A DNA stretch of 64,000 nucleotides from a virus (Duplodnaviria > Heunggongvirae > Uroviricota > Caudoviricetes). The position numbers were made by a program, and so were the translations under genes. The notes beneath the pieces were generated by a model. The model ran no database searches. It was not told the DNA's origin and worked only from the letters and a program-made list of their open reading frames with translations. The stretch's first letter is position 1; each line of letters begins with the position of its first letter. Positions 37,415 to 46,809 of this stretch are shown in pieces. Where the stretch lies: IMG/VR virus record IMGVR_UViG_3300013121_000010, positions 77,903 to 141,902 of that record; one strand, 5' to 3'.

Positions 37415-37673
37415 TTTTGCTTAACTCACTTTCTATAAGGCGGTCATGTTGAATACAACCTCTATATTCACCATTAGTAATTCTACTATAAGACTTTCTA
37501 AGAGCTTCTACTTCTGGACCATCTAGTTTTTCAACAAAACATTTTTCTACAGCCATTCTATAAAGAGGAATAACTTGAATACCAACAGACTCATCATAAT
37601 CAAAAAGATGAGAATATCCAAGTTTACTGAACATTTTTTGTTCTGGAACTGATAGTATAGATTTTAATTTCAT
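37407..37673 (-). CDS. hypothetical protein
   Basis: ORF only. Confidence 0.3.
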   Translation of the reverse strand: MKLKSILSVPEQKMFSKLGYSHLFDYDESVGIQVIPLYRMAVEKCFVEKLDGPEVEALRKSYSRITNGEYRGCIQHDRLIESELSKNV

Positions 37674-37675
37674 AG

Positions 37676-37746
37676 TACCCAGTAACAGAATCGAACTGTT
37701 TTAACTAAAATGTAAACTTAGTGTTTTACCATTAAACTAACCGGGC
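37676..37746 (-). tRNA. tRNA-Val (TAC)
   Basis: Acceptor GCCCGGT/ACTGGGT; D stem GTTT/AAAC; anticodon stem CTAAG/TTTAG with loop TTTACAT; T-arm AACAG-TTCGATT-CTGTT. Confidence 0.6.
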
Positions 37747-37752
37747 ATAGTT

Positions 37753-37830
37753 TAGAGAACAGTTAAACAGGTTAGTTGCTTACGCAACATTCAGTTACAA
37801 TGATTGAAGTAACCCATTTATTCACATCTA
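37753..37830 (-). repeat. conserved 78-nt element, copy 1 (second copy at 41185-41261), immediately upstream of a tRNA
   Basis: TAGAGAACAnTTAAACAGGTTAGT + hairpin + ATTGAAGTAACCCATTTATTCACATCTA; the hairpin is GTTGC-TTAC-GCAAC here and GTGC-TTTC-GCAC in copy 2, a compensatory change. Confidence 0.5.
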
Positions 37831-37842
37831 AACTACACTATC

Positions 37843-37870
37843 ATTATACCGCAAAAAAAATTTTTGTCAA
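37843..37870 (-). promoter_or_regulatory. sigma70-like promoter TTGACA-16-TATAAT (minus strand)
   Basis: Reverse complement reads TTGACAaaaattttttttgcggTATAAT. Confidence 0.5.
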
Positions 37871-37925
37871 GTGGGTGGGGTGATTTATTTTTCTTGGTGT
37901 ATAAAATACTAACCGGAGAAAACGT

Positions 37926-38636
37926 ATGACACCCCTCTTTACACAACAAGAATATAAAATATGTAAGTTACACGAAAAGTTACCTTTAGAGTGTAAACAA
38001 TGTAAAAATAAATTTTTCCAAACAAAAAAACAAATAAATAAAGCTTATAGATTTTTATCTGGTGAGTATTTAGCGAACGGTATTACTTGTGATTTTTGTT
38101 CTAAAAAATGTTCTGGAAAACATAAAACTTTAATTAATAGGACTTATATTAACTGTAAAAACTGTAATAAGATAATTTATCTACAAAATAAAGCTGTAAA
38201 AACAAATAATTTTTGTTCTAAATCATGTGCTGTAACATATAATAATAAAAATAAAAAATATGGAACTAGGGTAAGTAAACTTGAAATTTGGCTACAAAAC
38301 CAATTAAAAATTAAATTTCCTAATCTAGTATTTGAATTCAACAAAAAAGAATATATAAAATCTGAACTTGATATTTATATACCTTCTTTGGGCTTAGCTT
38401 TTGAACTTAATGGAATCTTTCATTACGAACCAATTTACGGAGAAGAAAAACTAAAGTCTATACAAAATAATGATTTTAGAAAATTCCAAGCGTGTTTGGA
38501 AAACAATATAGAATTATGTATTATAAACACATCAAATCAAAAACATTTTACAGTAAAAAGTGGCCAAAAATATCTTGAAATTATCTATAATATCATTAAT
38601 GTTAAGTTAAAGGGAGATATATCAGAATCGAACTGA
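37926..38636 (+). CDS. free-standing endonuclease-like protein (DUF559/Vsr-like fold) with a Cys-rich N-terminus; probable homing endonuclease
   Basis: The only plus-strand gene in the tRNA cluster; ELDIYIPSLGLAFELNGIFHYE resembles the DUF559 motif V-D-F...IEvDG..H; RBS ggagaaaacgtATG; its 3-prime end overlaps tRNA-His. Confidence 0.45.
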   Translation: MTPLFTQQEYKICKLHEKLPLECKQCKNKFFQTKKQINKAYRFLSGEYLANGITCDFCSKKCSGKHKTLINRTYINCKNCNKIIYLQNKAVKTNNFCSKSCAVTYNNKNKKYGTRVSKLEIWLQNQLKIKFPNLVFEFNKKEYIKSELDIYIPSLGLAFELNGIFHYEPIYGEEKLKSIQNNDFRKFQACLENNIELCIINTSNQKHFTVKSGQKYLEIIYNIINVKLKGDISESN

Positions 38637-38685
38637 CACCTTTTCATTCACAGTGAACTATGCAGACCTCTACACTAATATCTCC
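38612..38685 (-). tRNA. tRNA-His (GTG)
   Basis: 8-bp acceptor GGAGATAT/ATATCTCC, consistent with the His G-1 position; anticodon loop CTGTGAA; T-arm GTCAG-TTCGATT-CTGAT. Confidence 0.55.
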
Positions 38686-38692
38686 ATACAAG

Positions 38693-38766
38693 TGGGCAAC
38701 TTGAGATTTGAACTCAAACTTTACTGCTTTTGAGACAGTTGCTTCTGCCAATTGAGCGAGTTACCC
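38693..38766 (-). tRNA. tRNA, anticodon tentatively CAA
   Basis: Acceptor GGGTAAC/GTTGCCC; T-arm TTGAG-TTCAAAT-CTCAA; anticodon stem ACTGT/GCAGT with loop CTCAAAA; short variable arm. Confidence 0.4.
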
Positions 38767-38782
38767 GTTTCTTATTATAAAA

Positions 38783-38857
38783 TTCGGGGGTAAGGAATCG
38801 AACCTTAGCATTCTTCGTTCAAAGCGAAGTAGGATTACCAACAACCCCAGCCCCCGA
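38783..38857 (-). tRNA. tRNA-Gln (TTG)
   Basis: Anticodon stem CTTCG/CGAAG with loop CTTTGAA; T-arm TAAGG-TTCGATT-CCTTA. Confidence 0.55.
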
Positions 38858-38858
38858 G

Positions 38859-38929
38859 TACCCACTACAGGAATCGAGCCTGTTTCTTAACTTTGTCACA
38901 GTTACATTCTACCATTGAACTAAGCGGGT
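38859..38929 (-). tRNA. tRNA-Val (GAC)
   Basis: Anticodon stem TAACT/AGTTA with loop GTGACAA; T-arm ACAGG-CTCGATT-CCTGT. Confidence 0.5.
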
Positions 38930-38950
38930 GTGTTATTTTCAATAACTTAG

Positions 38951-39023
38951 TGACTGCTCTCAGAATCGAACTGAGTTCCGAAGTGCTTCAAACTTCTGCT
39001 ATAACCATATCAGCTAAACAGTC
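38951..39023 (-). tRNA. tRNA-Phe (GAA)
   Basis: D stem GCTG/TAGC; anticodon stem GAAGT/ACTTC with loop TTGAAGC; T-arm CTCAG-TTCGATT-CTGAG. Confidence 0.6.
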
Positions 39024-39029
39024 ATTTGT

Positions 39030-39195
39030 ATTTCTTTAATGTCTAATACTAAAGACAGGGGCGGTAGGCCCTCCACCAGTTAGATAAATCTAACAGTGAC
39101 GCATACGGGTACTGCCCCCGTCTATTCTGGTTGAAAGCCAGACTACCTCACTTGATGTATAATGCGCCGTCTGTGGGACAGTTTCCATCCCACTT
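39030..39195 (-). ncRNA. GC-rich structured RNA immediately downstream of the Ro60/Rsr gene; candidate Y-RNA-like ncRNA with its own promoter
   Basis: About 50% GC in a 30% GC genome; hairpins GUGGGA-UGGAAACUG-UCCCAC, ACGGG-GGCAGUA-CCCGU and GUUAGAU-UUAUCUAAC; no credible ORF; the promoter at 39201-39229 fires into it. Confidence 0.4.
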
Positions 39196-39200
39196 GTTTT

Positions 39201-39229
39201 ATTATACCAGGAACTTAGCGTTCTGTCAA
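39201..39229 (-). promoter_or_regulatory. sigma70-like promoter TTGACA-17-TATAAT (minus strand) inside the 3-prime end of the Ro60 gene
   Basis: Reverse complement reads TTGACAgaacgctaagttcctggTATAAT. Confidence 0.55.
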
Positions 39230-40780
39230 GTCCGACATTTCCTTTGCATATCTTAAAATTCCGTCGCTCCATCCACCTAAGATATAAGTTCTGTCGTATA
39301 CTTCTGGCATAATAGTATCAGTATATCCAGCGACCTGCACAAGATATACATTTACCTTTGGATTGACGTTCTTTCTATAGGTGTTCACCAACATAGGAAC
39401 ATCAATACAATATGAATGATACCATAAATACTTTGAGTATTCATCTGGGTTCCTACCATAAAGTCCACCATGACCAGCTTGCATATCACTATAGATGAAA
39501 ACATTATCCCAATGTTCAGCTTTAGCTATAGCATCACGCCAAAACAACCAAATTCCATTTTCAGTTGATTTACCAATTCTGTTAGCTAAACTATTAGCAT
39601 TTTTTAAATCATCAAAAATACTAGAATTTTTGCGAATACTGAAAGTTTCCAGTTTATCACCAAAAACACCTAAATATCCATCATTAGAAACCTTACCAGT
39701 AATAATACCAGTTAAGTTCGCAATTTCAGATACCTTAACAGAACCATATTGACTAGTAGTTGTACCTTGTGCCGAACCACTATTATCGCAAAGCGACATA
39801 GTACGTCCTTTAAACTGAGGTAGTGAATGCAAGGAAATATTCAGGCAGTTTTCAATTGCATCCAAAACACTACCAGGAGCATTTACAGCTTTCAGTTCTT
39901 TGTAAGCCGTCCAATACCTAAACGGCAGTTGCTTACCTTTTTCGGCAGTTTTAACCAACTTATCTAGAACAACTTCCATATTAGCATTATTTTCAACAAA
40001 ATTTCTCAAATTGCGAAGTAATGCCATGTGCCCCATAACTGGAACGCATTCATCCCAACTTTTACCTTGAGAACGCATACTTTCCCAAGTTTCAGTATTT
40101 TTCAAAGTACCCTTTACAAGCCCATCAATAGCTGGTGTAGGAACAGGGTGAACCAAGTTAATAACATCTACTGTCTTAACTTCACGATTCTCCATTTTGT
40201 ACTTAGCAAGTTCATACTCACTAAATGTTGTTAAAACATAAGCTAAGGCTCGCTTTAAAGAGCTAGGGATAGCCACGCCTTTGAATGCGGACTTGTGATA
40301 AGCCACACAAACAGCAGGTTCATCCGCCCTCTTAACTATTTCCTTTGCATATCTGCGTATTAATTGAGTGCCTTTACTACCTTTATGGTTTGCAGCCCTT
40401 ACCAAAATAACTTGTGGTGTAGTTCTGATATTATCAGTATTACGCAAATGAGCGGCAAGTTCTAGAGTTTGTTTAACACTAAAATCTAAAGCCTTATCAA
40501 TACACTTCTCAAGAGTATTCTTAGCAGTATCACCTTCTAGCTCTACCAAAACCTTACCAAGTTGCTTAGTTAGGTCAAACTTAACCTTAAAAGTAGGAGA
40601 AGCCTTTTGAGTTTCTCCATAATAAGTTGGTTCGCCAAAGAAACAGCTTGCTGCTGCAACACGAAGTTTATGAATTGGATTGGAAATATCAAAGGATGTT
40701 CCATCCATAAAATTACGATGAGAGTTCTTATGAACTCTCTTTTCGTTTAGTGAGTTTACTCTTTTAGAATTTACAGCCAT
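39215..40780 (-). CDS. rsr: Ro60/Rsr orthologue (TROVE domain plus C-terminal vWA with MIDAS)
   Basis: N-terminal TROVE-like ...AAASCFFGEPTYYGE...; C-terminal vWA with DxSGS MIDAS (LCDNSGSAQG); 521 aa, matching Ro60 domain order and size. Confidence 0.6.
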   Translation of the reverse strand: MAVNSKRVNSLNEKRVHKNSHRNFMDGTSFDISNPIHKLRVAAASCFFGEPTYYGETQKASPTFKVKFDLTKQLGKVLVELEGDTAKNTLEKCIDKALDFSVKQTLELAAHLRNTDNIRTTPQVILVRAANHKGSKGTQLIRRYAKEIVKRADEPAVCVAYHKSAFKGVAIPSSLKRALAYVLTTFSEYELAKYKMENREVKTVDVINLVHPVPTPAIDGLVKGTLKNTETWESMRSQGKSWDECVPVMGHMALLRNLRNFVENNANMEVVLDKLVKTAEKGKQLPFRYWTAYKELKAVNAPGSVLDAIENCLNISLHSLPQFKGRTMSLCDNSGSAQGTTTSQYGSVKVSEIANLTGIITGKVSNDGYLGVFGDKLETFSIRKNSSIFDDLKNANSLANRIGKSTENGIWLFWRDAIAKAEHWDNVFIYSDMQAGHGGLYGRNPDEYSKYLWYHSYCIDVPMLVNTYRKNVNPKVNVYLVQVAGYTDTIMPEVYDRTYILGGWSDGILRYAKEMSDLTER

Positions 40781-41109
40781 TTTTAAATCTCCTAATCCTA
40801 GATTTCTAACCTTTCTTTAATAAGTTTTGTAAAATAATCGAATGCTATCTGTTTAGCTTTTTCAATACCTTCATCTACTGGACAAAGAACAATTTTTGTT
40901 TTTATAACTAGAAATTGGGTCCATTACCTTATAACATTCAGAAAGAGTATGTGGATACCATCCTTTAAAGATTTTCATATTATCTAACCTTTCATTTTAA
41001 AAGATATTCTTAGAGAACATAACTATAAAGTGTTTTTAATCCCAATTTTTTGATGGACGGGATTTTCAATTTTAAATGAAGTAACTCTATATCTCACATC
41101 TAAAAATAA

Positions 41110-41184
41110 GTGGACCTTGAGGGAGTCGCACCCTCTATCAGAATTTGCAGGATTCCAAATTTACCTCTAAAAAGGCCCATTTTG
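41110..41184 (-). ncRNA. tRNA-like RNA with non-canonical T-loop TGCGACT and anticodon-like loop CCTGCAA (Cys-like GCA); lies upstream of rsr
   Basis: Acceptor GGGCCTT/AAGGTCC; T-arm GAGGG-TGCGACT-CCCTC (G in place of the universal U55); C at position 33 of the anticodon loop. Confidence 0.45.
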
Positions 41185-41261
41185 TAGAGAACAATTAAAC
41201 AGGTTAGTGCTTTCGCACGACTAATTAATTCTAATTGAAGTAACCCATTTATTCACATCTA
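41185..41261 (-). repeat. conserved 78-nt element, copy 2
   Basis: See copy 1 at 37753-37830. Confidence 0.5.
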
Positions 41262-41265
41262 CAAG

Positions 41266-41338
41266 CACCAATAACGGGAATCGAACCCGCCGCGATAGGA
41301 TAGACAGTCCTACATCACCCCCAGATGAACTTATTGGT
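41266..41338 (-). tRNA. tRNA-Asp (GTC)
   Basis: Anticodon stem TAGGA/TCCTA with loop CTGTCTA; T-arm GCGGG-TTCGATT-CCCGT. Confidence 0.5.
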
Positions 41339-41349
41339 ATATCAAACAG

Positions 41350-41433
41350 TCTCGGAGACAGGATTTGAACCTGCATGGTCATTAAGACCGGAAACTTCTA
41401 AGGTTTCTGCGTATCCCTTTCCGCCACTCCGAG
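41350..41433 (-). tRNA. tRNA-Leu (TAG), type II
   Basis: Anticodon stem GAAAC/GTTTC with loop CTTAGAA; variable-arm hairpin GGTC-TTAAT-GACC; T-arm GCAGG-TTCAAAT-CCTGT. Confidence 0.55.
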
Positions 41434-41546
41434 ATAAAATTAAGCTAGTAGGTCAGGTAACGCTCCTGCAACAACGGATTAACAGTCCGCCCGAAAAACT
41501 TCTTTCATCCTACTAATATGAGAGGAATCCTCTCATTTGTTCTTTC

Positions 41547-41575
41547 ATTATACCGGAAGCTTTCCTTCCTGTCAA
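41547..41575 (-). promoter_or_regulatory. sigma70-like promoter TTGACA-17-TATAAT (minus strand) with a structured roughly 95-nt leader before tRNA-Leu
   Basis: Reverse complement reads TTGACAggaaggaaagcttccggTATAAT; the leader holds hairpin GAGAGGAUUCCUCUC and a long-range stem TAGTAGG...CCTACTA. Confidence 0.55.
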
Positions 41576-41589
41576 GCCCCATCTCTAAA

Positions 41590-41960
41590 AATTTTTAAAG
41601 CGTAGCTTTACCATAAAACGGAGTTTTTAACTCATTAAACCTATCAGCATCAAAGTTTAAAATAAAATCCGTAGTACCATCATCAAAGATATATTCTTTA
41701 TCGCCGATTGATACTGAACATGTACGCACACTTATTATAAGCAACGTATTTACCAACTTCGATAGAACTTCCAGCTAAATCTAACATATCTTTACAACTT
41801 TCTTTTCCTGAAAACCTTTATATGTTTCTTTAAGTGTAACACTTAAAACTTTAGAGTCATCACCGTTAGAATCTTTAACGAGAACCTCAAGTTCTCCGTC
41901 TAGCTTTTCAAGTTCTTTGATTAAGTCTTTAACCAACATAGTGCTATACACTCCTTACAA
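41590..41960 (-). pseudogene. decayed fragments of the CPIALAIKEK-family / MLDSVGKK-family gene pair
   Basis: Minus-strand frames encode ...FDADRFNELKTPFYGKATL (matches the C-terminus of ORF 43889-44185) and MLDLAGSSIEVGKYVAY (matches the N-terminus of ORF 43563-43895), interrupted by stops. Confidence 0.45.
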
Positions 41961-42053
41961 CTCAAGAGTTACGACAAACGGGGTTTTTAGTAACCAGTCG
42001 TTACCTTCATCAAAGTTATTAACAAAATTCTTTTTCTTTTTTGCTTGAAAATA

Positions 42054-42140
42054 AACAGTCCCGAATAAAGGAATTGAACCTCTTGACCGCCACCATACTT
42101 AATAGGTCAACTGTTTTACAGACAGCCGTATGGGATAGCC
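42054..42140 (-). ncRNA. tRNA-Tyr (GTA)-like gene lacking a canonical D-arm, with a large variable stem-loop (paralogue of 44204-44288)
   Basis: Anticodon stem GCTGT/ACAGT with loop CTGTAAA; only about 10 nt (ATCCCATACG) between acceptor and anticodon stem; variable stem TTGACC/GGTCAA. Confidence 0.4.
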
Positions 42141-42174
42141 GGGGATTAAGTAGCGCAATCAGGACTCGAATCAG

Positions 42175-42247
42175 CACCATCAGCAGGAGTCGAACCCGCA
42201 TAGAACTGTTTAGAACACAGACACACTATCCGTTGTGTTATGATGGC
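42175..42247 (-). tRNA. tRNA-Arg (TCT)
   Basis: D stem ACAC/GTGT; anticodon loop GTTCTAA; T-arm GCGGG-TTCGACT-CCTGC. Confidence 0.5.
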
Positions 42248-42347
42248 GTTTTCTTAGGTATTCCTTTTAATTTTTATTCCCTAAGTGGCAAAACTTTAGT
42301 ATTAGAAGGCTTCTGTGACCAACATAACTAAAATCTTGTCAAAGTGT

Positions 42348-42420
42348 TAGATACTGGAGTCGCACCAATCAGTCCTACCTTATGAGGGTTGGTTGAGCCT
42401 ACGCCCATCTGGCTTGTTCA
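42348..42420 (-). ncRNA. tRNA-Met (CAT)-like with T-loop TGCGACT and a mismatched acceptor stem
   Basis: Anticodon stem AACC/GGTT with loop CTCATAA; T-arm ATTGG-TGCGACT-CCAGT; paralogue at 44488-44560. Confidence 0.4.
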
Positions 42421-42423
42421 TTC

Positions 42424-42452
42424 ATTATACCGGAAGCATCGCTTCCTGTCAA
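42424..42452 (-). promoter_or_regulatory. sigma70-like promoter TTGACA-17-TATAAT (minus strand)
   Basis: Reverse complement reads TTGACAggaagcgatgcttccggTATAAT. Confidence 0.55.
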
Positions 42453-42453
42453 G

Positions 42454-42524
42454 TCCCCATTGCTGGAATCGAGCCAGCTTCTTATCCGTGTCATAGATAC
42501 ATTCTACCATTGAACTAAACGGGG
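42454..42524 (-). tRNA. tRNA-Val (GAC), second copy
   Basis: Anticodon stem TATCT/GGATA with loop ATGACAC; T-arm GCTGG-CTCGATT-CCAGC. Confidence 0.45.
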
Positions 42525-42529
42525 GTTAA

Positions 42530-42610
42530 GCAGGTTTGTGACAAATCGAATGCCCTAGCTTTCGCAACTGTTTTGGAGGCAGTTTCCCATCCCACTGGGG
42601 AGCAAACCTG
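42530..42610 (-). tRNA. tRNA-Trp (CCA) with an 8-bp terminal helix and a long variable region
   Basis: Terminal stem CAGGTTTG/CAAACCTG; D stem CCCC/GGGA; anticodon loop CTCCAAA; paralogue at 44561-44640 has terminal stem CATATTTG/CAAATATG (compensatory). Confidence 0.45.
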
Positions 42611-43230
42611 TATTACATTGGAAGGATTATTGATTACCTTCAACCATCCTTAAATCCGATATTGTTCAGCCATACACTTATAGAGTAGCTAGTTCTATAA
42701 TTAACGTGTAGCTCGTTTGGTTACAAGCAAAGGAAAGCAGACTTCAACATTGTTCTTATTCCTTACCACCCTCACATCAGGTTGGCCAACCCAATGCTAT
42801 TAGTGCTTTATACCGAATTTACATTCTGAACGTTAGTAGGACACTTTTCAGTGTACTCCCAACTGTATTTAGGGCAGTCAACCCTATTTTCTACCACAAT
42901 GTAAGTAGCCCCGCATGGAAGTCGAACCATGTTCCCAAGATTAACCTACTACTATTAGTTTCCTAATCAGAAATATTTTTATTTCTTTGTAGTCTGGACT
43001 ATATCATCAACCAAATTGGTTGTTTCGCGTTTAGTCTCTGAGGAACCCTTTCGGTTTCCTGCTGATTGCCCAATATTTTAGATTGTCACGATTGTAATCG
43101 TACTAAAATCTCTAAGGGGTTTCCAGCATATAGCGAAATTCATTTTACATATTACTATGTAAACGCTCTTATTTTATGGAATCAAGTCTTGTGCTAATCC
43201 AGTTAAAGCTTCGGAGCCATTTTCTTCTTA

Positions 43231-43259
43231 CATTATATCAGATGCTTCGCATCTTGTCA
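43231..43259 (-). promoter_or_regulatory. sigma70-like promoter TTGACA-17-TATAAT (minus strand) firing into the ORF-free 42610-43225 region
   Basis: Reverse complement reads TTGACAagatgcgaagcatctgaTATAAT. Confidence 0.55.
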
Positions 43260-43553
43260 AGTTCTCTCTATTGTAAAACTAATTTCTCTCAATTTGTTAA
43301 AATTTGCTGTATCAAAATTCTTAATAAACTTATCAACTTTATTACAATCTTTAATAGAAGTAACTTTATATCTCTTCTTAGTATATCTATCTATAAATAT
43401 TTCAATAGACCCAGAATCACCAACAATTGCTGTTTTATGTAGCTTTTCTTTAATAGCTAAAGCAACTGGGCAAAATTGACATATATCCAGTGACTTTATT
43501 TTATTTTTAGCCTGTTCAATATGCTTACGCTTAACTTCAATTTTAATACTCAT
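43257..43553 (-). CDS. CPIALAIKEK-motif family protein (paralogue A2)
   Basis: KRKHIEQAKNK...CQFCPVALAIKEKLHK; three intact paralogues plus one decayed copy. Confidence 0.5.
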   Translation of the reverse strand: MSIKIEVKRKHIEQAKNKIKSLDICQFCPVALAIKEKLHKTAIVGDSGSIEIFIDRYTKKRYKVTSIKDCNKVDKFIKNFDTANFNKLREISFTIERT

Positions 43554-43562
43554 AATAAATCC

Positions 43563-43895
43563 TTAATCGCTAAAATCTAACACACCTTTATGTAACCACT
43601 TTTCTATACACTTTTTAAGTGTACATGAATTTGGTATACCATTAAAAAAATCTTTTACAATTTCTAGCGGTTCAACCACTACAAACTTTCCTGCTTCTTT
43701 AAAAGTTGTAATAATTTTAATTGTTAGTTGTGGTTTATAGTCTACGCTAAGTCTTTGAATTTTAACCTTATTTTTATTTTCATCAATATCAATAACTTTT
43801 CCGGTTATCATTCCATATTCAGCGTCAACATTACCTTTACCCCCATAAGAGATAAAATCACCAATATTAACCTTTTTACCAACAGAATCTAACAT
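43563..43895 (-). CDS. hypothetical protein (MLDSVGKK family)
   Basis: Translationally coupled to the upstream paralogue; a fragment homologue lies in the 41590-41960 pseudogene. Confidence 0.45.
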   Translation of the reverse strand: MLDSVGKKVNIGDFISYGGKGNVDAEYGMITGKVIDIDENKNKVKIQRLSVDYKPQLTIKIITTFKEAGKFVVVEPLEIVKDFFNGIPNSCTLKKCIEKWLHKGVLDFSD

Positions 43896-44185
43896 AGTTT
43901 TACAACTTCCAATGTAAGATAAAATGGTGTTTTCAATTCATTATATTTTTCACCATCAAAAGATTCTACAAAATCTTTAACGTGCAAATTGCCATAACTA
44001 TAACGCTTATCATCTATGAAGATTCTAGCACCACTATCAACATCAACCCTCTTATGAGTTTTCTCTTTAATAGCTAGAGCAATAGGGCAGCATGAGCTTA
44101 AAACAATACCATTTTTATGTCTAATTTTCTTTGCTCTTTCAATATGGCGTTTAAGAACTTTTACTTTAATCAACTTCATACCCAT
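43889..44185 (-). CDS. CPIALAIKEK-motif family protein (paralogue A1)
   Basis: KRHIERAKKI...SCCPIALAIKEKTHK. Confidence 0.5.
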   Translation of the reverse strand: MGMKLIKVKVLKRHIERAKKIRHKNGIVLSSCCPIALAIKEKTHKRVDVDSGARIFIDDKRYSYGNLHVKDFVESFDGEKYNELKTPFYLTLEVVKLC

Positions 44186-44203
44186 TCCTTTCTTTTAGTG
44201 CCA

Positions 44204-44288
44204 ACCAAGGGAATCGAACCCCCTGCCGCCACCATACATATTAATGGCAGTTGATTTACAGTCAACCGTATGGGATAGCTGGCTTAAG
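44204..44288 (-). ncRNA. tRNA-Tyr (GTA)-like gene lacking a canonical D-arm (paralogue of 42054-42140)
   Basis: Acceptor GCCAGCT/GGTTGGC; anticodon stem GTTGA/TCAAC with loop CTGTAAA; variable stem CTGCC/GGCAG enclosing an 18-nt loop; T-arm GGGGG-TTCGATT-CCCTT. Confidence 0.4.
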
Positions 44289-44359
44289 TCTCGCAGGCAA
44301 GAATCGAACTTGCATTTTGAGCTTATGAAGCTCACGAATTGCCATTACTCTACCGCGAA
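44289..44359 (-). tRNA. tRNA-Met (CAT)
   Basis: Acceptor TTCGCGG/CTGCGAG; anticodon stem TGAGC/GCTCA with loop TTCATAA; T-arm GCAAG-TTCGATT-CTTGC. Confidence 0.5.
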
Positions 44360-44360
44360 G

Positions 44361-44433
44361 TAACCACGGTCGGTCTTGCACCGACATCTGACAATTTAGA
44401 AGATTGCCGCTCTATCTATTAAGCTACGTGGTC
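44361..44433 (-). tRNA. tRNA-Arg (TCT)-like with T-loop TGCAAGA
   Basis: D stem GCTT/GAGC; anticodon stem GCAAT/ATTGT with loop CTTCTAA; T-arm GTCGG-TGCAAGA-CCGAC (G55). Confidence 0.45.
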
Positions 44434-44448
44434 GTGTTTTGTTCTTTC

Positions 44449-44477
44449 ATTATAACAGAGGGAAAACCTCTTGTCAA
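44449..44477 (-). promoter_or_regulatory. sigma70-like promoter TTGACA-17-TATAAT (minus strand)
   Basis: Reverse complement reads TTGACAagaggttttccctctgtTATAAT. Confidence 0.55.
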
Positions 44478-44487
44478 GTGGCAGATA

Positions 44488-44560
44488 TTGGAGTCGCACC
44501 AATCAAATTAACCTTATGAGGGTTAGTCGAGCCTTCGCCCATCTGCAAGCATATTTGTGA
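44488..44560 (-). ncRNA. tRNA-Met (CAT)-like with T-loop TGCGACT (paralogue of 42348-42420)
   Basis: Anticodon stem AACC/GGTT with loop CTCATAA; T-arm ATTGG-TGCGACT-CCAAT. Confidence 0.4.
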
Positions 44561-44640
44561 GGAATCGAACCCCTTAGCGTTTAGCAACTGTTTTGGAGGC
44601 AGTTTCCCATCCCACTGGGAAGCAAATATATGAGCCGTAA
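44561..44640 (-). tRNA. tRNA-Trp (CCA), paralogue of 42530-42610
   Basis: D stem TCCC/GGGA; anticodon loop CTCCAAA; T-loop TTCGATT. Confidence 0.45.
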
Positions 44641-44649
44641 AACGGCAAG

Positions 44650-44741
44650 CGGAAAGTAAGGGAATCGAACCCTCATTGCATTTTCAGGTGCAACCTAGTT
44701 TTCAAGACTAGTGCGACCTACCAATAGTCGCCAATCTTTCC
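44650..44741 (-). tRNA. tRNA-Ser (TGA), type II
   Basis: D stem GCGAC/GTCGC; anticodon stem CTAGT/ACTAG with loop CTTGAAA; variable stem TTGCA/TGCAA; T-arm GAGGG-TTCGATT-CCCTT. Confidence 0.55.
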
Positions 44742-44780
44742 ATTTATAGGATTTTGTCCTACTTTGTATTATATCGGAAG

Positions 44781-45089
44781 TTACGGTTTATGTAAAGTGT
44801 CCCTAGCAATTTTAAATTTAATTGGGCGAGCTTTATTAAATAAACCGTTATCAAAATTACTAATAAAATTATCAATTGCGGAAACATACCTGTTTCCTAA
44901 AACTTCGTATACTTTACCATCTATATTAATATCTTCTGGAGATATAACATAAACTTTTTTATGAGTCTTTTCCTTAATTGCTAATGCAATTGGACAAGAA
45001 TTAGAGCTAACGCAATCATATTTTTGTGCAATTTTAATTGCATCTTTAATATGTTTTCTAGTAACTTGAATTTCAATCATATGTTTCAC
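44781..45089 (-). CDS. CPIALAIKEK-motif family protein (paralogue A3)
   Basis: RKHIKDAIKI...NSCPIALAIKEKTHK. Confidence 0.5.
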   Translation of the reverse strand: MKHMIEIQVTRKHIKDAIKIAQKYDCVSSNSCPIALAIKEKTHKKVYVISPEDINIDGKVYEVLGNRYVSAIDNFISNFDNGLFNKARPIKFKIARDTLHKP

Positions 45090-45104
45090 ACTTTTCCTTT
45101 CTAG

Positions 45105-45175
45105 TTAGTAAACTTGGATTTGAACCAAGACAGAGACTTTCAGAGAGTCTAATGCTACCATTACATTATTTACTA
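45105..45175 (-). tRNA. tRNA-Gln (CTG)
   Basis: Anticodon stem AGACT/AGTCT with loop CTCTGAA; T-arm CTTGG-TTCAAAT-CCAAG. Confidence 0.55.
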
Positions 45176-45176
45176 G

Positions 45177-45249
45177 TCGGGCATATCAGATTTGAACTGC
45201 TTCTCGAAATCCCAAATTTCGCGTGTTTCCAGGTTACACCATACACCCG
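45177..45249 (-). tRNA. tRNA-Pro (TGG)
   Basis: Anticodon stem CGAAA/TTTCG with loop TTTGGGA. Confidence 0.5.
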
Positions 45250-45325
45250 TTATTAACCTTCTCTGCTGTCTATAGCCAGCATCGCCATTTGTGTTTAAGT
45301 GCTTAATGGTTTCTGGTCAGGTTAG

Positions 45326-45408
45326 TGTCTGAGGTGGGAGTCGAACCCACAAGGTTTAATACCGACAGTGTTTAAGACTGTTGCGTTTGCCAGTTACGCC
45401 ACTCAGAC
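45326..45408 (-). tRNA. tRNA-Leu (TAA), type II
   Basis: Acceptor GTCTGAG/CTCAGAC; anticodon stem ACAGT/ACTGT with loop CTTAAAC; T-arm GTGGG-TTCGACT-CCCAC. Confidence 0.55.
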
Positions 45409-45419
45409 TTGTCTTTTTC

Positions 45420-45448
45420 ATTATAGCAGATGGTTTACCATCTGTCAA
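45420..45448 (-). promoter_or_regulatory. sigma70-like promoter TTGACA-17-TATAAT (minus strand) upstream of tRNA-Leu
   Basis: Reverse complement reads TTGACAgatggtaaaccatctgcTATAAT. Confidence 0.55.
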
Positions 45449-45450
45449 GG

Positions 45451-45521
45451 GGCCGAAGGGGTGAATCGAACACCCGTAGTAAATTTACAAGATTTACGTC
45501 CTACCACTGAACGACTCCGGC
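45451..45521 (-). tRNA. tRNA-Thr (TGT)
   Basis: Acceptor GCCGGAG/CTTCGGC; anticodon stem TAAAT/ATTTA with loop CTTGTAA; T-arm GGGTG-TTCGATT-CACCC. Confidence 0.55.
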
Positions 45522-45535
45522 TAACTTACTCTTAC

Positions 45536-45564
45536 ATTGTACCAGACGTTTCGTATTTTGTCAA
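45536..45564 (-). promoter_or_regulatory. sigma70-like promoter TTGACA-17-TACAAT (minus strand)
   Basis: Reverse complement reads TTGACAaaatacgaaacgtctggTACAAT. Confidence 0.5.
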
Positions 45565-46392: not shown

Positions 46393-46734
46393 AAGTGGAC
46401 CGGGCGGGTACTGCCCCCGCGTACTAAAATAAATTTAAAGATTTGAATAATATACAGGTTTCTTTAAGATTTTAAGGTAATCTTATAACCTACCTTACGA
46501 TTTGAATTTTAACTATTAAAGGTTTTAAGTTAAAACCACTCTAATTAAAGAGCAAATGAGTAATCGACGTTTTTGTTGCTCTTACGAGCAACTTTAGTGC
46601 TTGTTGCACTCAAACCACGAACACTGAACATACTATCGTTTGCTGTTACTTTTTTGACTGTTTTTAGGTAGCCTCAGCCTCTACCACCTGCCAGCACTTT
46701 AAATTTAAGCTAGGCGAATCTATTTCCGGCCCAT

Positions 46735-46775
46735 AAAAAAGCCAGCCGGGATTTTAATTACCGGCTGACAGTATT
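46735..46775 (-). terminator. candidate intrinsic terminator (minus strand) overlapping a promoter
   Basis: Minus-strand RNA CAGCCGG-uaauuaaaauc-CCGGCUG followed by GCUUUUUUAU. Confidence 0.45.
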
Positions 46776-46809
46776 CTATCACAAAAATGTTGGCTTGTCA
46801 AACAAACCT

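What the first reader, a model, noticed from the sequence alone, without database searches (positions are those of the whole stretch)
37676..45531. Very large tRNA array (about 30 tRNA or tRNA-like genes) with duplicated isoacceptors
Manual folding finds tRNAs for Val (TAC and two GAC), His, Gln (TTG and CTG), Phe, Asp, Leu (TAG and TAA), Arg (TCT x2), Met/CAT (several), Trp (x2), Ser (TGA), Pro and Thr (TGT). More lie in the smaller clusters at 10.1, 16.7, 26.3 and 27.5 kb (Thr-GGT, Arg-CCT/ACG, Lys, Cys, Gly, Ile, Ser-GCT). This is large even for T4-like phages. Several are paralogous pairs (Trp, Tyr-like, Met-like, Val-GAC).
Basis: seen in the sequence. Interest (0 to 1): 0.5.

Follow-up and report, generated by a model that had tools for sequence, protein, structure and literature searches.

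The report
Phage tRNA array with RNA-handling extras
This is a real, large cluster of transfer-RNA genes in an uncultivated AT-rich phage, of a kind already seen in Bacillus phage G, and it also holds a self-splicing intron inside a tRNA gene, a tmRNA-like gene and a Ro60-like protein with small partner RNAs.

Summary
ARAGORN at default settings tRNAs in the window, all on the minus strand, and 18 of them lie in 37675-45521. Shuffled windows give none. Rfam confirms 17 of the 18. Nine more tRNA-like genes lie in the same stretch, making 27. They are a tRNA-Lys(UUU) split by a 239-nt group I intron, seven sub-threshold genes (Ala-, Asn-, Trp-, 2 Met-, 2 Tyr-like) and a by-eye Glu(UUC) cloverleaf.

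With the smaller clusters, anticodons cover all 20 amino acids and match the phage's own A/T-ending codons. Eleven near-consensus sigma-70 promoters lie in 37-47 kb; ten head tRNA groups or the tmRNA.

- the intron;
- a tmRNA-like gene (46393-46732);
- a TROVE/Ro60-like gene (39215-40780) inside the array;
- three short Y-RNA-like units beside it;
- an HNH endonuclease gene.

Bacillus phage G has the same tRNA + TROVE + tmRNA layout and the same Y-like units. Complete phage genomes carry up to 67 tRNAs. The array is therefore a new member of a known kind. Function is inferred: a self-sufficient decoding set for phage mRNAs. Host unknown.

The parts
37675..37746 (-). tRNA-Val(UAC)
   Evidence: ARAGORN default; Rfam tRNA 59.7 bits.
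37747..37836 (-). Y-RNA-like unit Ya. It starts just after its own promoter and ends about 4 nt before tRNA-Val.
   Evidence: Outer helix GTTTAGA/TCTAAAC, loop motif GAUGUGA, inner helix UAAAUGGG/CCUGUUUA, invariant UUACUUC.
37843..37870 (-). Sigma-70-type promoter, 12/12 match, driving Ya plus tRNA-Val
   Evidence: Promoter scan.
37926..38636 (+). HNH/homing-endonuclease-like ORF (236 aa), the only plus-strand gene here. Its 3' end overlaps tRNA-His.
   Evidence: phrog_559 HNH endonuclease E 2.9e-8 and phrog_3339 homing endonuclease; no Pfam hit.
38612..38684 (-). tRNA-His(GUG)
   Evidence: ARAGORN; Rfam 54.4 bits.
38692..38766 (-). 75-nt tRNA with anticodon CAA (Leu codon UUG) but a short 5-nt variable loop (class I shape)
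   Evidence: ARAGORN; Rfam 53.5 bits; sequence read.
38783..38857 (-). tRNA-Gln(UUG)
   Evidence: ARAGORN; Rfam 44.2 bits.
38858..38929 (-). tRNA-Val(GAC), copy 1
   Evidence: ARAGORN; Rfam 58.9 bits; 83% identical to the copy at 42453-42524.
38950..39023 (-). tRNA-Phe(GAA)
   Evidence: ARAGORN; Rfam 53.6 bits.
39097..39168 (-). Candidate tRNA-Glu(UUC) with the non-canonical T-loop GGCAGUA
   Evidence: The minimum-energy fold is a full cloverleaf, z -2.37. Not called by ARAGORN even at 75% or by Rfam. Its T-arm 13-mer is shared only with the tmRNA.
39201..39229 (-). Sigma-70-type promoter, 12/12, heading the Glu-like to His group
   Evidence: Promoter scan.
39215..40780 (-). TROVE-domain (Ro60/Rsr-like) protein, 521 aa
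   Evidence: Pfam PF05731, 39.2 bits against cut-off 23; phrog_850 E 8e-36. 38.8% identical over its full length to Bacillus phage G gp540.
41007..41104 (-). Y-RNA-like unit Yc, between the Ala-like tRNA and the TROVE start codon
   Evidence: Outer helix UUUAGA/UCUAAG, inner helix AUAUAGAG/CUUUAUAG, UUACUUC, A-rich AAAAACA.
41110..41178 (-). Ala(UGC)-like tRNA, 69 nt, with a weak D arm and T-loop UGCGACU
   Evidence: ARAGORN only at the 90% threshold; no Rfam hit at E<=10.
41179..41264 (-). Y-RNA-like unit Yb, wedged between tRNA-Asp and the Ala-like tRNA
   Evidence: Paralog of Ya with compensatory changes in the outer helix and in a GNRA hairpin.
41265..41338 (-). tRNA-Asp(GUC)
   Evidence: ARAGORN; Rfam 32.9 bits.
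41349..41433 (-). tRNA-Leu(UAG), long variable arm
   Evidence: ARAGORN; Rfam 50.5 bits.
41444..41515 (-). Asn(GUU)-like tRNA with T-loop AGCGUUA
   Evidence: ARAGORN at 90% only; the minimum-energy fold is a cloverleaf; no Rfam hit.
41547..41575 (-). Sigma-70-type promoter, 12/12
   Evidence: Promoter scan.
42058..42144 (-). Tyr(GUA)-like tRNA, copy 2, with a reduced D arm and a variable arm of about 28 nt
   Evidence: Paralog of 44198-44284 with compensatory changes in the acceptor, anticodon and variable stems.
42174..42247 (-). tRNA-Arg(UCU), copy 1
   Evidence: ARAGORN; Rfam 49 bits.
42342..42413 (-). Met(CAU)-like, copy 2, probably degenerate (two acceptor-stem mismatches)
   Evidence: 84% identical to 44476-44545; no finder calls it.
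42424..42452 (-). Sigma-70-type promoter, 12/12
   Evidence: Promoter scan.
42453..42524 (-). tRNA-Val(GAC), copy 2
   Evidence: ARAGORN; Rfam 55.7 bits.
42530..42609 (-). tRNA-Trp(CCA)-like, copy 2, 80 nt with a variable arm of about 12 nt
   Evidence: ARAGORN at 90%. D and anticodon arms are identical to copy 1, and the acceptor stem changes are compensatory.
42610..42905 (-). 296-nt non-coding stretch of unknown nature that folds better than shuffles
   Evidence: z -3.84; no Rfam family; no similar sequence in any fetched locus.
42906..43218 (-). tRNA-Lys(UUU) gene split by a group I intron. 5' exon 43218-43184, intron 43183-42945 (239 nt), 3' exon 42944-42906.
   Evidence: Rfam Intron_gpI 67.8 bits against gathering score 50. 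ARAGORN intron mode gives Lys(ttt) with 'gactt-Intron-ttaat'. The guide sequence UAAGAG pairs with CUU|UUA. 41 of 87 predicted pairs covary with three related loci.
43232..43260 (-). Sigma-70-type promoter, 12/12, 14 nt upstream of the split tRNA-Lys
   Evidence: Promoter scan.
43257..44185 (-). Three small ORFs. 43257-43553 and 43889-44185 are paralogs with the motif CPIALAIKEK; 43563-43895 lies between them.
   Evidence: ORF list; phrog_19191 and phrog_2251, both of unknown function; repeat family D5.
44198..44284 (-). Tyr(GUA)-like tRNA, copy 1
   Evidence: Rfam tRNA-Sec model 23.4 bits, E 0.59; anticodon loop CUGUAAA; paralogy.
44288..44359 (-). tRNA-Met(CAU)
   Evidence: ARAGORN; Rfam 53.8 bits.
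44360..44433 (-). tRNA-Arg(UCU), copy 2, with T-loop UGCAAGA
   Evidence: ARAGORN; Rfam 58.3 bits; sequence.
44449..44477 (-). Sigma-70-type promoter, 12/12
   Evidence: Promoter scan.
44478..44547 (-). Met(CAU)-like, copy 1, with a 1-72 mismatch and T-loop UGCGACU
   Evidence: ARAGORN at 90%; the minimum-energy fold is a cloverleaf.
44549..44629 (-). tRNA-Trp(CCA), copy 1, 81 nt with a 13-nt variable arm, A1-U72 and G73
   Evidence: ARAGORN default; Rfam tRNA-Sec model 33 bits.
44649..44741 (-). tRNA-Ser(UGA)
   Evidence: ARAGORN; Rfam tRNA-Sec model 47.3 bits, explained by the long arm. The anticodon is UGA, not UCA.
44768..44796 (-). Sigma-70-type promoter, 11/12
   Evidence: Promoter scan.
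44781..45089 (-). Third paralog of the CPIALAIKEK small ORF family (102 aa)
45104..45175 (-). tRNA-Gln(CUG)
   Evidence: ARAGORN; Rfam 59.5 bits.
45176..45249 (-). tRNA-Pro(UGG)
   Evidence: ARAGORN; Rfam 41.3 bits.
45325..45408 (-). tRNA-Leu(UAA)
   Evidence: ARAGORN; Rfam 58.3 bits.
45420..45448 (-). Sigma-70-type promoter, 12/12
   Evidence: Promoter scan.
45449..45521 (-). tRNA-Thr(UGU)
   Evidence: ARAGORN; Rfam 57.4 bits.
45536..45564 (-). Sigma-70-type promoter, 11/12
   Evidence: Promoter scan.
46393..46732 (-). tmRNA-like gene just outside the stated range
   Evidence: Rfam RF00023 50.1 bits against gathering score 47. Acceptor GGGCCGG/CCGGUCC with G3.U70. Tag ORF ANDSMFSVRGLSATSTKVARKSNKNVDYSFAL*. 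T-loop is GGCAGUA. ARAGORN does not call it.
46773..46801 (-). Sigma-70-type promoter, 11/12, upstream of the tmRNA-like gene
   Evidence: Promoter scan.

Best explanation
The stretch 37.7-46.8 kb is the core of a phage-encoded RNA module whose main content is a near-complete set of tRNA genes.

Shown:
- There are 27 tRNA or tRNA-like genes on one strand in 37675-45521, and 36 in the window.
- Eleven near-consensus sigma-70 promoters lie in 37-47 kb. Ten of them sit just upstream of a tRNA sub-cluster, the Y-like unit Ya or the tmRNA-like gene; the eleventh (46099-46071) precedes a small ORF.
- None of the ARAGORN-called genes encodes a 3' CCA.
- One gene, tRNA-Lys(UUU), is interrupted between anticodon positions 34 and 35 by a group I intron whose structure is conserved.

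Inferred: host RNA polymerase transcribes short polycistronic precursors. Host RNase P, RNase Z and the CCA-adding enzyme mature them. The Lys precursor splices itself.

The anticodons cover all 20 amino acids and read the phage's preferred A/T-ending codons, with extra copies for AGA (Arg) and GUU (Val). The most likely role is therefore to give the AT-rich phage its own decoding capacity. That would make late translation less dependent on a host tRNA pool that may be mismatched, depleted or attacked.

A TROVE/Ro60-like protein sits in the same module with three short Y-RNA-like partners. These appear to be released by processing of the flanking tRNAs, and the likely role is RNA quality control. 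The module also holds a tmRNA-like gene (likely ribosome rescue) and an HNH endonuclease gene that may drive the duplications.
For: tRNA calls and controls.

Sub-threshold paralogs keep their helices through compensatory changes. Examples are the Tyr-like anticodon stem UUGA/UCAA against CUGU/ACAG and the Trp-like acceptor AGGUUUG/CAAACCU against AUAUUUG/CAAAUAU.

Promoters: seven 12/12 and four 11/12 TTGACA-17-TATAAT sites (one has a 16-nt spacer), all on the minus strand. Ten lie directly upstream of a tRNA group, Ya or the tmRNA.

Codon match: on 64 ORFs of at least 100 aa, AAA, AAU, GAA, GAU, UUA, UAU, UUU, AUU, GGU, AGA and GUU dominate. Each is read by a window-encoded anticodon; AGA is 60% of Arg codons and GUU 52% of Val codons, and both have two tRNA genes.

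Intron: Rfam 67.8 bits. ARAGORN intron mode independently gives the boundaries I derived from P1/P10 pairing. 41 of 87 pairs show compensatory change across four loci, including the acceptor and anticodon stems that form across the intron. The same intron lineage sits in tRNA genes in 88 of 123 viral segments and 107 of 120 bacterial segments.

Module precedent: Bacillus phage G has TROVE gp540 inside its tRNA array, with an annotated tmRNA. A 6-kb metagenomic contig, L057, has 11 tRNAs around a TROVE gene that is 54% identical.

Y-like units: 15 units next to TROVE genes share one design. Their inner helices pair at 6.9 of 8 positions, against 3.9 of 8 when units are mismatched; these figures come from 18 units, including three from phage G. 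Phage G has five more such units upstream of gp540, plus one whose insert matches Rfam YrlA at E 1.3e-5.
Against: No expression, processing, charging or splicing data exist; every functional step is inferred.

The host is unknown, so codon compensation cannot be tested against a host tRNA pool.

Nine of the 27 genes fail default detection, and seven of these get no Rfam tRNA score at all. At least one (Met-like copy 2) looks degenerate.

Several genes have T-loops that depart from the UUCRANY consensus (GGCAGUA, UGCGACU, UGCAAGA, AGCGUUA, an 8-nt loop in tRNA-Lys). This might impair folding or recognition.

The tmRNA-like gene barely passes Rfam's gathering score, its pseudoknots align poorly, and ARAGORN does not see it.

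The window's Y-like units get no Rfam YrlA hit and lack the published GNCGAAN0-1G motif (PMC4201824).
Confidence: 0.8

Rival explanations
1. The array exists mainly as counter-defence. It would replace host tRNAs cut by anticodon nucleases, retron effectors, PARIS, Septu or Schlafen-type enzymes. The structurally odd copies (altered T-loops, enlarged variable arms, reduced D arm) would be nuclease-resistant versions. This can coexist with codon supply.
For: Non-canonical variants are kept in pairs with compensatory changes. The window also encodes an RNA ligase and a metallophosphoesterase, a possible tRNA-repair pair. A homing endonuclease sits in the array.

Published work shows phage tRNAs evading tRNA-targeting defences (PMC10264068 and PMC11555353). 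One abstract reports that Septu cleaves the tRNA-Tyr variable loop and that T-even SegB amplifies the tRNA locus (PMC13096335). Here the Tyr-like genes have an unusually long variable arm and are duplicated.
Against: No defence system or host is known for this phage. The anticodon loops of the main tRNAs are canonical; for example, Lys is CUUUUAA. The close fit between the anticodon set and phage codon usage is what plain codon supply predicts.
Confidence: 0.3
2. The sub-threshold tRNA-like genes are decaying pseudogenes left by segmental duplication, perhaps endonuclease-driven. Only the roughly 19 well-scoring genes would work as tRNAs.
For: Seven get no Rfam tRNA score at E<=10. Met-like copy 2 has two acceptor mismatches and one in the anticodon stem. 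Tyr-like copy 2 and Trp copy 1 fold no better than shuffles, z about -0.4. The region shows shuffled duplicate blocks.
Against: The differences between Tyr-like copies are overwhelmingly compensatory in three helices, and the anticodon loops are identical. The Trp-like copies keep 36 identical nucleotides of D and anticodon arms and covary in the acceptor stem. All lie in register within tight tRNA runs with spacers of 1-19 nt. Without them the set would lack Tyr, Asn, Ala and Glu.
Confidence: 0.3
3. Some tRNA-like elements serve as processing punctuation or as Ro60 ligands rather than decoders. RNase P and RNase Z cuts at them would release the flanking Y-like RNAs and mRNAs.
For: Yb lies exactly between tRNA-Asp and the Ala-like element. 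Yc starts 6 nt after the Ala-like element. Ya ends about 4 nt before tRNA-Val. Bacterial Y RNAs are known to mimic tRNA and to be handled by tRNA enzymes (PMC4201824).
Against: This explains at most the Ala-like gene. The others carry sensible anticodons in 7-nt loops that fill gaps in the set.
Confidence: 0.2
4. The window is a bacterial chromosomal tRNA island or a mis-assembly, not a phage.
For: No phage record matches at the nucleotide level. Secreted cytochrome-motif proteins and a DUF1501 protein are unusual for phages.
Against: There are PHROG matches to rIIA (E 8e-110), RNA ligase, NAMPT, ribonucleotide reductase and homing endonuclease. Genes are co-oriented on one strand across 64 kb at 31% G+C. 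The closest TROVE relatives are in IMG/VR viral contigs and Bacillus phage G.
Confidence: 0.03

Closest known systems
Bacillus phage G (NC_023719) tRNA / tmRNA / TROVE region, gp536-gp557
   Same: The TROVE protein gp540 is 38.8% identical over its full length. It sits inside the tRNA array, and an annotated tmRNA lies 3 kb away. The 1-kb gap upstream of gp540 holds five units of the same design (GA[A/U]GCGG ... ACAGUUACUUC ... CUGUU ... outer helix). A sixth unit has an insert that matches Rfam YrlA.
   Different: Phage G is reported to have 18 tRNAs and a 13-residue tag (PMC12484599). This window alone has 26-36 tRNA genes and a 32-residue tag. No intron-split tRNA was seen in the phage G stretch. 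There is no nucleotide similarity. The window's Y-like units have short inserts and the loop motif GAUGUGA.
Group I introns in tRNA anticodon loops, such as cyanobacterial and plastid tRNA-Leu(UAA) (from memory; Kuhsel 1990 and Xu 1990 as cited in PMC11878797)
   Same: A self-splicing group I fold sits in the anticodon loop after U34. A short P1 has a U.G pair at the splice site. The acceptor and anticodon stems form across the intron.
   Different: The host gene is tRNA-Lys(UUU) in a phage. The sequence lineage (core GAUAUAGUCCAGACYACAA) occurs in many tRNA types in viral contigs and in Bacillota, Bacteroidota, Arenicellales, Acidobacteriota and others. The IC3 subgroup was not tested.
Bacterial Y RNAs YrlA/YrlB bound by Rsr (Ro60) (PMC4201824)
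   Same: They are encoded beside a TROVE gene. A long stem formed by the two ends carries an internal loop and a variable distal module. In two relatives (L057 unit 2 and a phage G unit) the module is a permuted tRNA-like domain.
   Different: The window units have no tRNA-like domain and no Rfam YrlA hit. They carry GAUGUGA/GUAGCGG plus UUACUUC instead of the published GNCGAAN0-1G motif. Binding to the TROVE protein is untested.
T4 tRNA gene cluster with the SegB homing endonuclease (from memory; PMC13096335 abstract)
   Same: Clustered phage tRNA genes have a free-standing homing-endonuclease gene among them, and there is evidence of segmental duplication.
   Different: T4 has 8 tRNAs (from memory). 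Here the endonuclease is HNH-like rather than GIY-YIG and lies on the opposite strand. Its activity on the array is untested.
tRNA-rich huge phages (PMC7162821)
   Same: They carry large tRNA sets, tmRNAs and other translation genes. The number of tRNAs rises with genome size.
   Different: This window shows no tRNA synthetase, SmpB or release factor among the ORFs scanned. Genome size is unknown.

Membership tests
Canonical tRNA genes (Rfam RF00005 / ARAGORN) | Cloverleaf scoring above the curated threshold | tested here: met
   17 of the 27 genes in range reach Rfam's gathering score and 18 pass ARAGORN default. Shuffled windows give 0.
Canonical tRNA genes (Rfam RF00005 / ARAGORN) | The same threshold applied to the nine extra tRNA-like genes | tested here: not met
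   Ala-, Asn-, Trp#2-, Met-like x2 and Tyr#2 get no Rfam tRNA hit at E<=10. Tyr#1 gets 23 bits on the Sec model. The Glu-like gene is missed even at the ARAGORN 75% threshold. Split Lys scores 91 in intron mode at a lowered threshold; at default the spliced sequence is not called.
Canonical tRNA genes (Rfam RF00005 / ARAGORN) | Aminoacylation and use in decoding | not testable with these tools
   Needs charged-tRNA sequencing or northern blots from infected cells.
Group I intron (Rfam RF00028) | Covariance-model score above the gathering score | tested here: met
   67.8 bits against 50, E 7e-17, full model 1-253.
Group I intron (Rfam RF00028) | U.G pair at the 5' splice site in P1, terminal G at the 3' end, P10 pairing with the 3' exon | tested here: met
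   The exon ends ...CUU and the intron ends ...GUAGG. The guide UAAGAG pairs continuously with CUU|UUA. The same logic holds with different sequences in L024/L052 (UUAGGAGU with GCUU|UUAA) and L063 (AGGGGGC with GCCU|UCU).
Group I intron (Rfam RF00028) | Conserved core helices supported by covariation | tested here: met
   87 predicted pairs, 41 with changes on both sides, in a four-sequence alignment.
Group I intron (Rfam RF00028) | Self-splicing activity | not testable with these tools
   Needs in vitro transcription and a GTP-dependent splicing assay.
tmRNA (Rfam RF00023) | Score above the gathering score; tRNA-like domain with G3.U70; tag ORF starting at a GCA resume codon and ending in a stop | tested here: met
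   50.1 bits against 47. The acceptor is GGGCCGG/CCGGUCC-A. There is a 32-codon ORF ending UAA.
tmRNA (Rfam RF00023) | Canonical T-loop and detection by ARAGORN | tested here: not met
   The T-loop is GGCAGUA. ARAGORN gives no call at this locus, even at the 85% threshold.
tmRNA (Rfam RF00023) | Four pseudoknots | tested here: inconclusive
   Posterior probabilities are low across the pseudoknot 2-4 region of the Rfam alignment.
Ro60 / TROVE proteins (Pfam PF05731) | TROVE domain above the Pfam cut-off | tested here: met
   39.2 bits against 23. phrog_850 covers residues 17-513.
Y RNA (YrlA, Rfam RF02553; PMC4201824) | Encoded next to the Ro60 gene, with a long terminal stem bearing an internal loop | tested here: met
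   Yc and Yb lie within 500 nt upstream of the TROVE gene. The outer and inner helices covary across 15 units.
Y RNA (YrlA, Rfam RF02553; PMC4201824) | Covariance-model match, tRNA-like T and D arms, GNCGAAN0-1G motif | tested here: not met
   There is no YrlA hit in the window at E<=10 and no extra T-arm in the window. The motif is replaced by GAUGUGA/GUAGCGG. A related phage G unit does hit YrlA at 36.2 bits, below the gathering score of 69.
Y RNA (YrlA, Rfam RF02553; PMC4201824) | Binding by the Ro60 orthologue | not testable with these tools
   Needs immunoprecipitation or gel shift with the 521-aa protein.

The most novel reading that the evidence does not exclude
The phage maintains a deliberately non-standard tRNA set. 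Its oddities include a T-loop GGCAGUA shared by a tRNA-Glu and the tmRNA, UGCGACU and UGCAAGA T-loops, a tRNA-Tyr with a reduced D arm and a 28-nt variable arm, a tRNA-Trp with a 13-nt variable arm, and a class-I-shaped tRNA with a Leu anticodon.

On this reading the departures are adaptive. They would make the RNAs invisible to host tRNA-targeting nucleases while still usable in translation. The set would be coupled to a Ro60/mini-Y-RNA surveillance system whose RNAs are released from tRNA precursors by RNase P and RNase Z.
Probability: 0.2. Interest if true: 0.7.

Novelty: new member of a known kind. Interest (0 to 1): 0.45.

Why it matters
The array adds a well-resolved example from an unsampled phage lineage. 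The nearest TROVE relative is 56% identical and there is no nucleotide match to any isolate. The module combines a near-complete tRNA set with a split tRNA, a tmRNA and a Ro60/Y-RNA system.

Two by-products may be more useful than the array itself:
- One group I intron lineage turns out to sit mostly in tRNA genes, of many anticodon types, in viral contigs and in diverse bacterial genomes. Default tRNA finders miss these genes, so tRNA inventories of phages and bacteria are probably undercounted.
- A simple shared design (outer helix, GAUGYGR loop, inner helix, UUACUUC) marks short RNAs beside phage TROVE genes, including those of cultivable Bacillus phage G. That gives a tractable system for testing what phage Ro60 proteins do.

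Tried and rejected
- Megablast of 37000-47500 against 50,697 phage records found no match.
- An exact-protein look-up of the TROVE protein found nothing on record.
- Exact-pattern scans of viral contigs for the Trp-like and Tyr-like genes found no match, so no close relative was available to test them by covariation.
- TROVE-anchored scans of viral and metagenome contigs found relatives at 56% identity at best.
- Host inference failed. A genome scan with the 592-aa secreted protein found no relative. The codon-usage comparison with a host was therefore not done.
- ARAGORN's intron mode at lowered thresholds produces many false positives. I accepted the split tRNA-Lys only because its boundaries coincide with the Rfam intron hit and the P1/P10 pairing.
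- Asn(GUU) was considered as the alternative reading of the split tRNA. I rejected it because the discriminator is A (typical of bacterial tRNA-Lys, against G73 in tRNA-Asn; from memory), the guide sequence fits CUU|UUA, and a separate Asn-like gene exists.
- tRNA-Sec was considered for 44649-44741 and for the Trp-like genes. I rejected it because the anticodons are UGA and CCA and the acceptor stems have 7 bp.
- ARAGORN's low-threshold 'tmRNA' calls at 38692-39117 and 42905-43218 are artefacts of neighbouring tRNAs and of the split tRNA.
- A YrlA-type T-arm was sought across the whole window and not found.
- MAFFT could not align the 3' halves of the Y-like units. On trimmed units the outer helix fell in two registers, so I did not build a covariance model and relied on the manual structural alignment instead. 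A simple helix descriptor passed 34 of 373 control motifs and is too loose to use alone.
- Five literature searches found no paper describing group I introns in phage tRNA genes. That is absence from the held library only.

Full report

ARAGORN at default settings tRNA genes in the 64-kb window, all on the minus strand, and 18 of them lie in 37675-45521. Twenty dinucleotide-preserving shuffles of the window give no call at default settings and 0.45 per window at a 90% threshold. Rfam at gathering score confirms 17 of the 18. It adds a long-arm tRNA at 27620-27711, whose anticodon loop UUGCUAA makes it Ser-GCU.

**The extra tRNA-like genes**

At a 90% threshold ARAGORN adds six candidates. All are on the minus strand inside existing tRNA runs:

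| Candidate | Coordinates |
|---|---|
| Cys-GCA | 26318-26386 |
| long-arm gene (Ser-GCU) | 27619-27711 |
| Ala-UGC-like | 41110-41178 |
| Asn-GUU-like | 41444-41515 |
| second 80-nt Trp-CCA | 42530-42609 |
| Met-CAU-like | 44478-44547 |

Repeat finding adds a second Met-like copy at 42342-42413 and shows that the Tyr-like gene at 44198-44284 has a paralog at about 42058-42144.

These genes get no Rfam tRNA score at E<=10, so they are not canonical. Even so, the paralogs differ mostly by compensatory changes:
- The Tyr-like anticodon stem is UUGA/UCAA in one copy and CUGU/ACAG in the other, around an identical CUGUAAA loop. The long variable arm changes from CUGCC/GGCAG to UUGAC/GUCAA.
- The two Trp genes share 36 identical nucleotides of D and anticodon arms. 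Their acceptor stems are AGGUUUG/CAAACCU and AUAUUUG/CAAAUAU.

Met-like copy 2 has acceptor mismatches and may be decaying.

A further 72-nt sequence at 39097-39168 folds as a complete cloverleaf at minimum free energy, with anticodon loop CUUUCAA. That makes it Glu-UUC, the only amino acid otherwise missing. No finder calls it, because its T-loop is GGCAGUA.

My count for the stated range is therefore 27: 18 default calls, one split gene, seven sub-threshold genes and one by-eye candidate.

**A tRNA gene split by a group I intron**

A permissive Rfam scan found a group I intron at 42979-43193, scoring 67.8 bits against a gathering score of 50. The default filters had missed it.

Its flanks are two tRNA halves. 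The 5' half is GGCUCCG...CAAGACUU and the 3' half is UUAAUCUUG...CGGGGCUA. The intron's internal guide UAAGAG pairs continuously with the ligated exons CUU|UUA, with a U.G pair at the 5' splice site and a terminal G at the 3' end.

ARAGORN in intron mode independently reports tRNA-Lys(ttt) with a 239-nt intron and the junction 'gactt-Intron-ttaat'. That mode is noisy. The support is that it coincides with the Rfam boundaries.

Three related split Lys genes from viral contigs (L121, L024, L052) align at 76% mean identity. RNAalifold predicts 87 pairs, 41 of them with changes on both sides. These include the acceptor and anticodon stems that form across the intron. The guide sequence changes with the exon in other tRNA types, for example AGGGGGC with GCCU|UCU in an Arg-UCU gene.

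AAA is the commonest codon in the window's ORFs (1023 of about 15,300), and this is the only gene in the window that reads it directly.

**How common such introns are**

At ARAGORN's default threshold, 88 of 123 viral segments and 107 of 120 bacterial segments are tRNA genes whose intron encloses the motif. Many anticodon types are represented, including Leu-UAA, Arg-UCU, Ser-GCU, Phe-GAA and Lys-UUU. ARAGORN's anticodon labels for these genes are approximate.

The window's intron is thus a member of a widespread lineage. Five searches of the held literature found no paper describing such introns in phage tRNA genes.

**Transcription layout**

The region has seven perfect and four 11/12 matches to TTGACA-17-TATAAT (one has a 16-nt spacer), all on the minus strand. 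Ten lie directly upstream of a tRNA group, the Y-like unit Ya or the tmRNA-like gene; the eleventh (46099-46071) precedes a small ORF. Most belong to one repeat family whose spacer contains a short palindrome.

None of the ARAGORN-called genes encodes CCA. No CCA-adding enzyme was seen among the larger ORFs.

**What else is in the module**

- *TROVE/Ro60-like protein.* ORF 39215-40780 is a TROVE-domain protein: Pfam 39.2 bits against a cut-off of 23, and phrog_850 at E 8e-36.
- *tmRNA-like gene.* 46393-46732 passes Rfam's gathering score (50.1 against 47). It has a G3.U70 acceptor and an intact 32-codon tag ending YSFAL. Its T-loop is GGCAGUA, and ARAGORN does not call it.
- *A shared T-arm.* The 13-mer GGGGGCAGUACCC occurs exactly twice in the window, in this T-arm and in the Glu-like gene. 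The expected number by chance is 0.
- *Homing endonuclease.* ORF 37926-38636 on the plus strand matches HNH and homing-endonuclease PHROGs.
- *RNA-handling enzymes near the array.* These are a SpoU methylase, a metallophosphoesterase and an RNA ligase.

**Y-RNA-like units**

An 85-nt leader is repeated upstream of tRNA-Val-UAC and upstream of the Ala-like gene, and partly again downstream of the Ala-like gene. It contains GGGUUACUUC, a motif that also recurs upstream of TROVE genes in related contigs.

Fifteen units were aligned by hand: three from the window, four from L057, two from L001, three from L003, two from L060 and one from L061. All share one design:
- an outer helix of 5-10 bp;
- an internal loop with GA(U/A)G(U/C)G(A/G) on the 5' side and AUUC on the 3' side;
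- an inner 8-bp helix;
- the invariant UUACUUC;
- a 9-70-nt insert;
- an A-rich stretch.

Both helices differ in sequence between units but stay complementary. Across 18 units (these 15 plus three from phage G), inner helices pair at 6.9 of 8 positions within a unit and 3.9 of 8 between mismatched units.

Background density of UUACUUC is about one per 7.8 kb of strand in 2.9 Mb of unrelated loci, whereas TROVE-upstream regions hold 2-5 within 700 nt.

Bacillus phage G has five such units in the gap upstream of its TROVE gene gp540. It has a sixth whose insert matches Rfam YrlA at E 1.3e-5, below the gathering score. L057 unit 2 likewise carries a T-arm and a D-arm-like insert.

I therefore read the window's Ya (37747-37836), Yb (41179-41264) and Yc (41007-41104) as short Y-RNA-like partners of the TROVE protein. 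They do not match the Rfam YrlA model or the published GNCGAAN0-1G motif, and binding is untested.

Their positions suggest release by tRNA processing: Ya ends 4 nt before tRNA-Val, Yb is wedged between tRNA-Asp and the Ala-like gene, and Yc starts 6 nt after it.

**Function**

On 64 ORFs of at least 100 aa, codon use is strongly A/T-ending and fits the standard code. Stops are TAA 39, TGA 17 and TAG 8, and no suppressor anticodon is present.

For every amino acid, a window-encoded anticodon reads the preferred codon directly or by G.U or U34 wobble. The duplicated genes serve AGA (60% of Arg codons) and GUU (52% of Val codons). This fits a self-sufficient decoding set for phage mRNAs.

Whether the driving force is codon mismatch with the host, loss of host tRNAs during infection, or evasion of tRNA-targeting defences cannot be decided without a host (PMC10264068, PMC11555353). 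The maintained structural oddities and the nearby RNA ligase make the counter-defence reading worth testing.

**Comparison and novelty**

Bacillus phage G shows the same tRNA + TROVE + tmRNA + Y-like layout. A 6-kb metagenomic contig has 11 tRNAs around a related TROVE gene. Complete phage genomes carry up to 67 tRNAs, and tmRNAs are reported in huge phages (PMC7162821).

The array is a new member of a known kind, from a lineage with no close relative in the collections searched.

**Unexplained**

The 296-nt non-coding stretch at 42610-42905 folds well (z -3.84) but matches no Rfam family and no fetched locus.

Noticed in passing
window 46393-46732 (-): A tmRNA-like gene lies just outside the stated range. 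Rfam gives 50.1 bits against a gathering score of 47. It has a G3.U70 acceptor and a 32-residue tag ANDSMFSVRGLSATSTKVARKSNKNVDYSFAL. Its T-loop is the non-canonical GGCAGUA, and ARAGORN does not call it.
   Followed up: partly
window 39107-39119 and 46406-46418 (-): The 13-mer GGGGGCAGTACCC occurs exactly twice in 64 kb, against 0 expected. It forms the T-arm of the tmRNA-like gene and of the by-eye tRNA-Glu(UUC) candidate. Two unrelated genes share one unusual T-arm.
   Followed up: partly
window 42610-42905 (-): A 296-nt non-coding stretch lies between the split tRNA-Lys and the Trp-like gene. It folds much better than shuffles (z -3.84). It has no Rfam match and no similar sequence in any fetched locus.
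   Followed up: partly
window 37747-37836, 41179-41264, 41007-41104 (-); L057 2646-3040; L001 9762-9929; L003 9388-9932; L060 9702-9944; L180 (Bacillus phage G) 2768-2920 and 4262-4930: A shared RNA design sits next to TROVE genes in this phage, in metagenomic relatives and in Bacillus phage G: outer helix, GAUGYGR loop, inner helix, UUACUUC, variable insert. Both helices covary. It looks like a family of short Y RNAs that the Rfam YrlA model does not capture.
   Followed up: partly
L063-L179 (viral contigs) and L181-L300 (bacterial genomes): One group I intron lineage (core GATATAGTCCAGACYACAA) sits mostly inside tRNA genes of many anticodon types: 88 of 123 viral and 107 of 120 bacterial segments. 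The bacteria include Bacillaceae, Arenicellales, Bacteroidota, Acidobacteriota and Chloroflexota. Introns are about 190-360 nt, or about 640-800 nt and then probably ORF-bearing.
   Followed up: partly
window 38692-38766 (-): A well-scoring 75-nt tRNA has anticodon CAA (Leu) but a 5-nt variable loop, which is class I shape rather than the long-arm shape of bacterial tRNA-Leu. Its amino-acid identity is uncertain.
   Followed up: no
window 27456-27527 (-): tRNA-Gly with anticodon ACC (A at position 34), 32% G+C, Rfam 59.2 bits. GGU is the phage's main Gly codon (62%). A34 is unusual in bacterial-type tRNAs outside Arg-ACG (from memory).
   Followed up: no
window 43257-43553, 43889-44185, 44781-45089 (-): Three paralogous ORFs of about 100 aa (motif CPIALAIKEK; phrog_19191, unknown function) are interleaved with the tRNA groups.
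   Followed up: no
window 37926-38636 (+): An HNH/homing-endonuclease-like ORF is the only plus-strand gene in the region. Its last 25 nt overlap tRNA-His. It may be linked to the shuffled duplicate blocks 42058-42609 and 44198-44629.
   Followed up: no
window 39191-46103 (-), eight copies: The promoters form a repeat family: TTGACA, a 17-nt spacer holding a short palindrome such as GGAAG-N-CTTCC, TATAAT, then GAAAGAACAA. The palindrome might be an operator.
   Followed up: no
window 35891-36403, 36612-37160, 62307-63407 (-): A SpoU-type RNA methylase (Pfam E 1e-22), a metallophosphoesterase (phrog_547) and an RNA ligase (Pfam RNA_ligase E 1e-18) lie near the array. They could be tRNA modification and repair functions.
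   Followed up: no
window 21526-24006 (-) and 4297-8349 (-): The 826-aa NAMPT homologue matches its family in two pieces. Residues about 333-660 hit PHROGs annotated as unrelated enzymes (RNR, thymidylate synthase, PhoH), which suggests an intein. The 1350-aa ribonucleotide reductase has about 500 extra N-terminal residues.
   Followed up: no
window 28566-29777, 47517-48107, 48104-49882 (-): A DUF1501 protein (Pfam E 5e-81) and two signal-peptide proteins with CxxCH haem-type motifs are present. These are unusual phage cargo and might hint at the host lineage. A genome scan with the 592-aa protein found no relative.
   Followed up: partly
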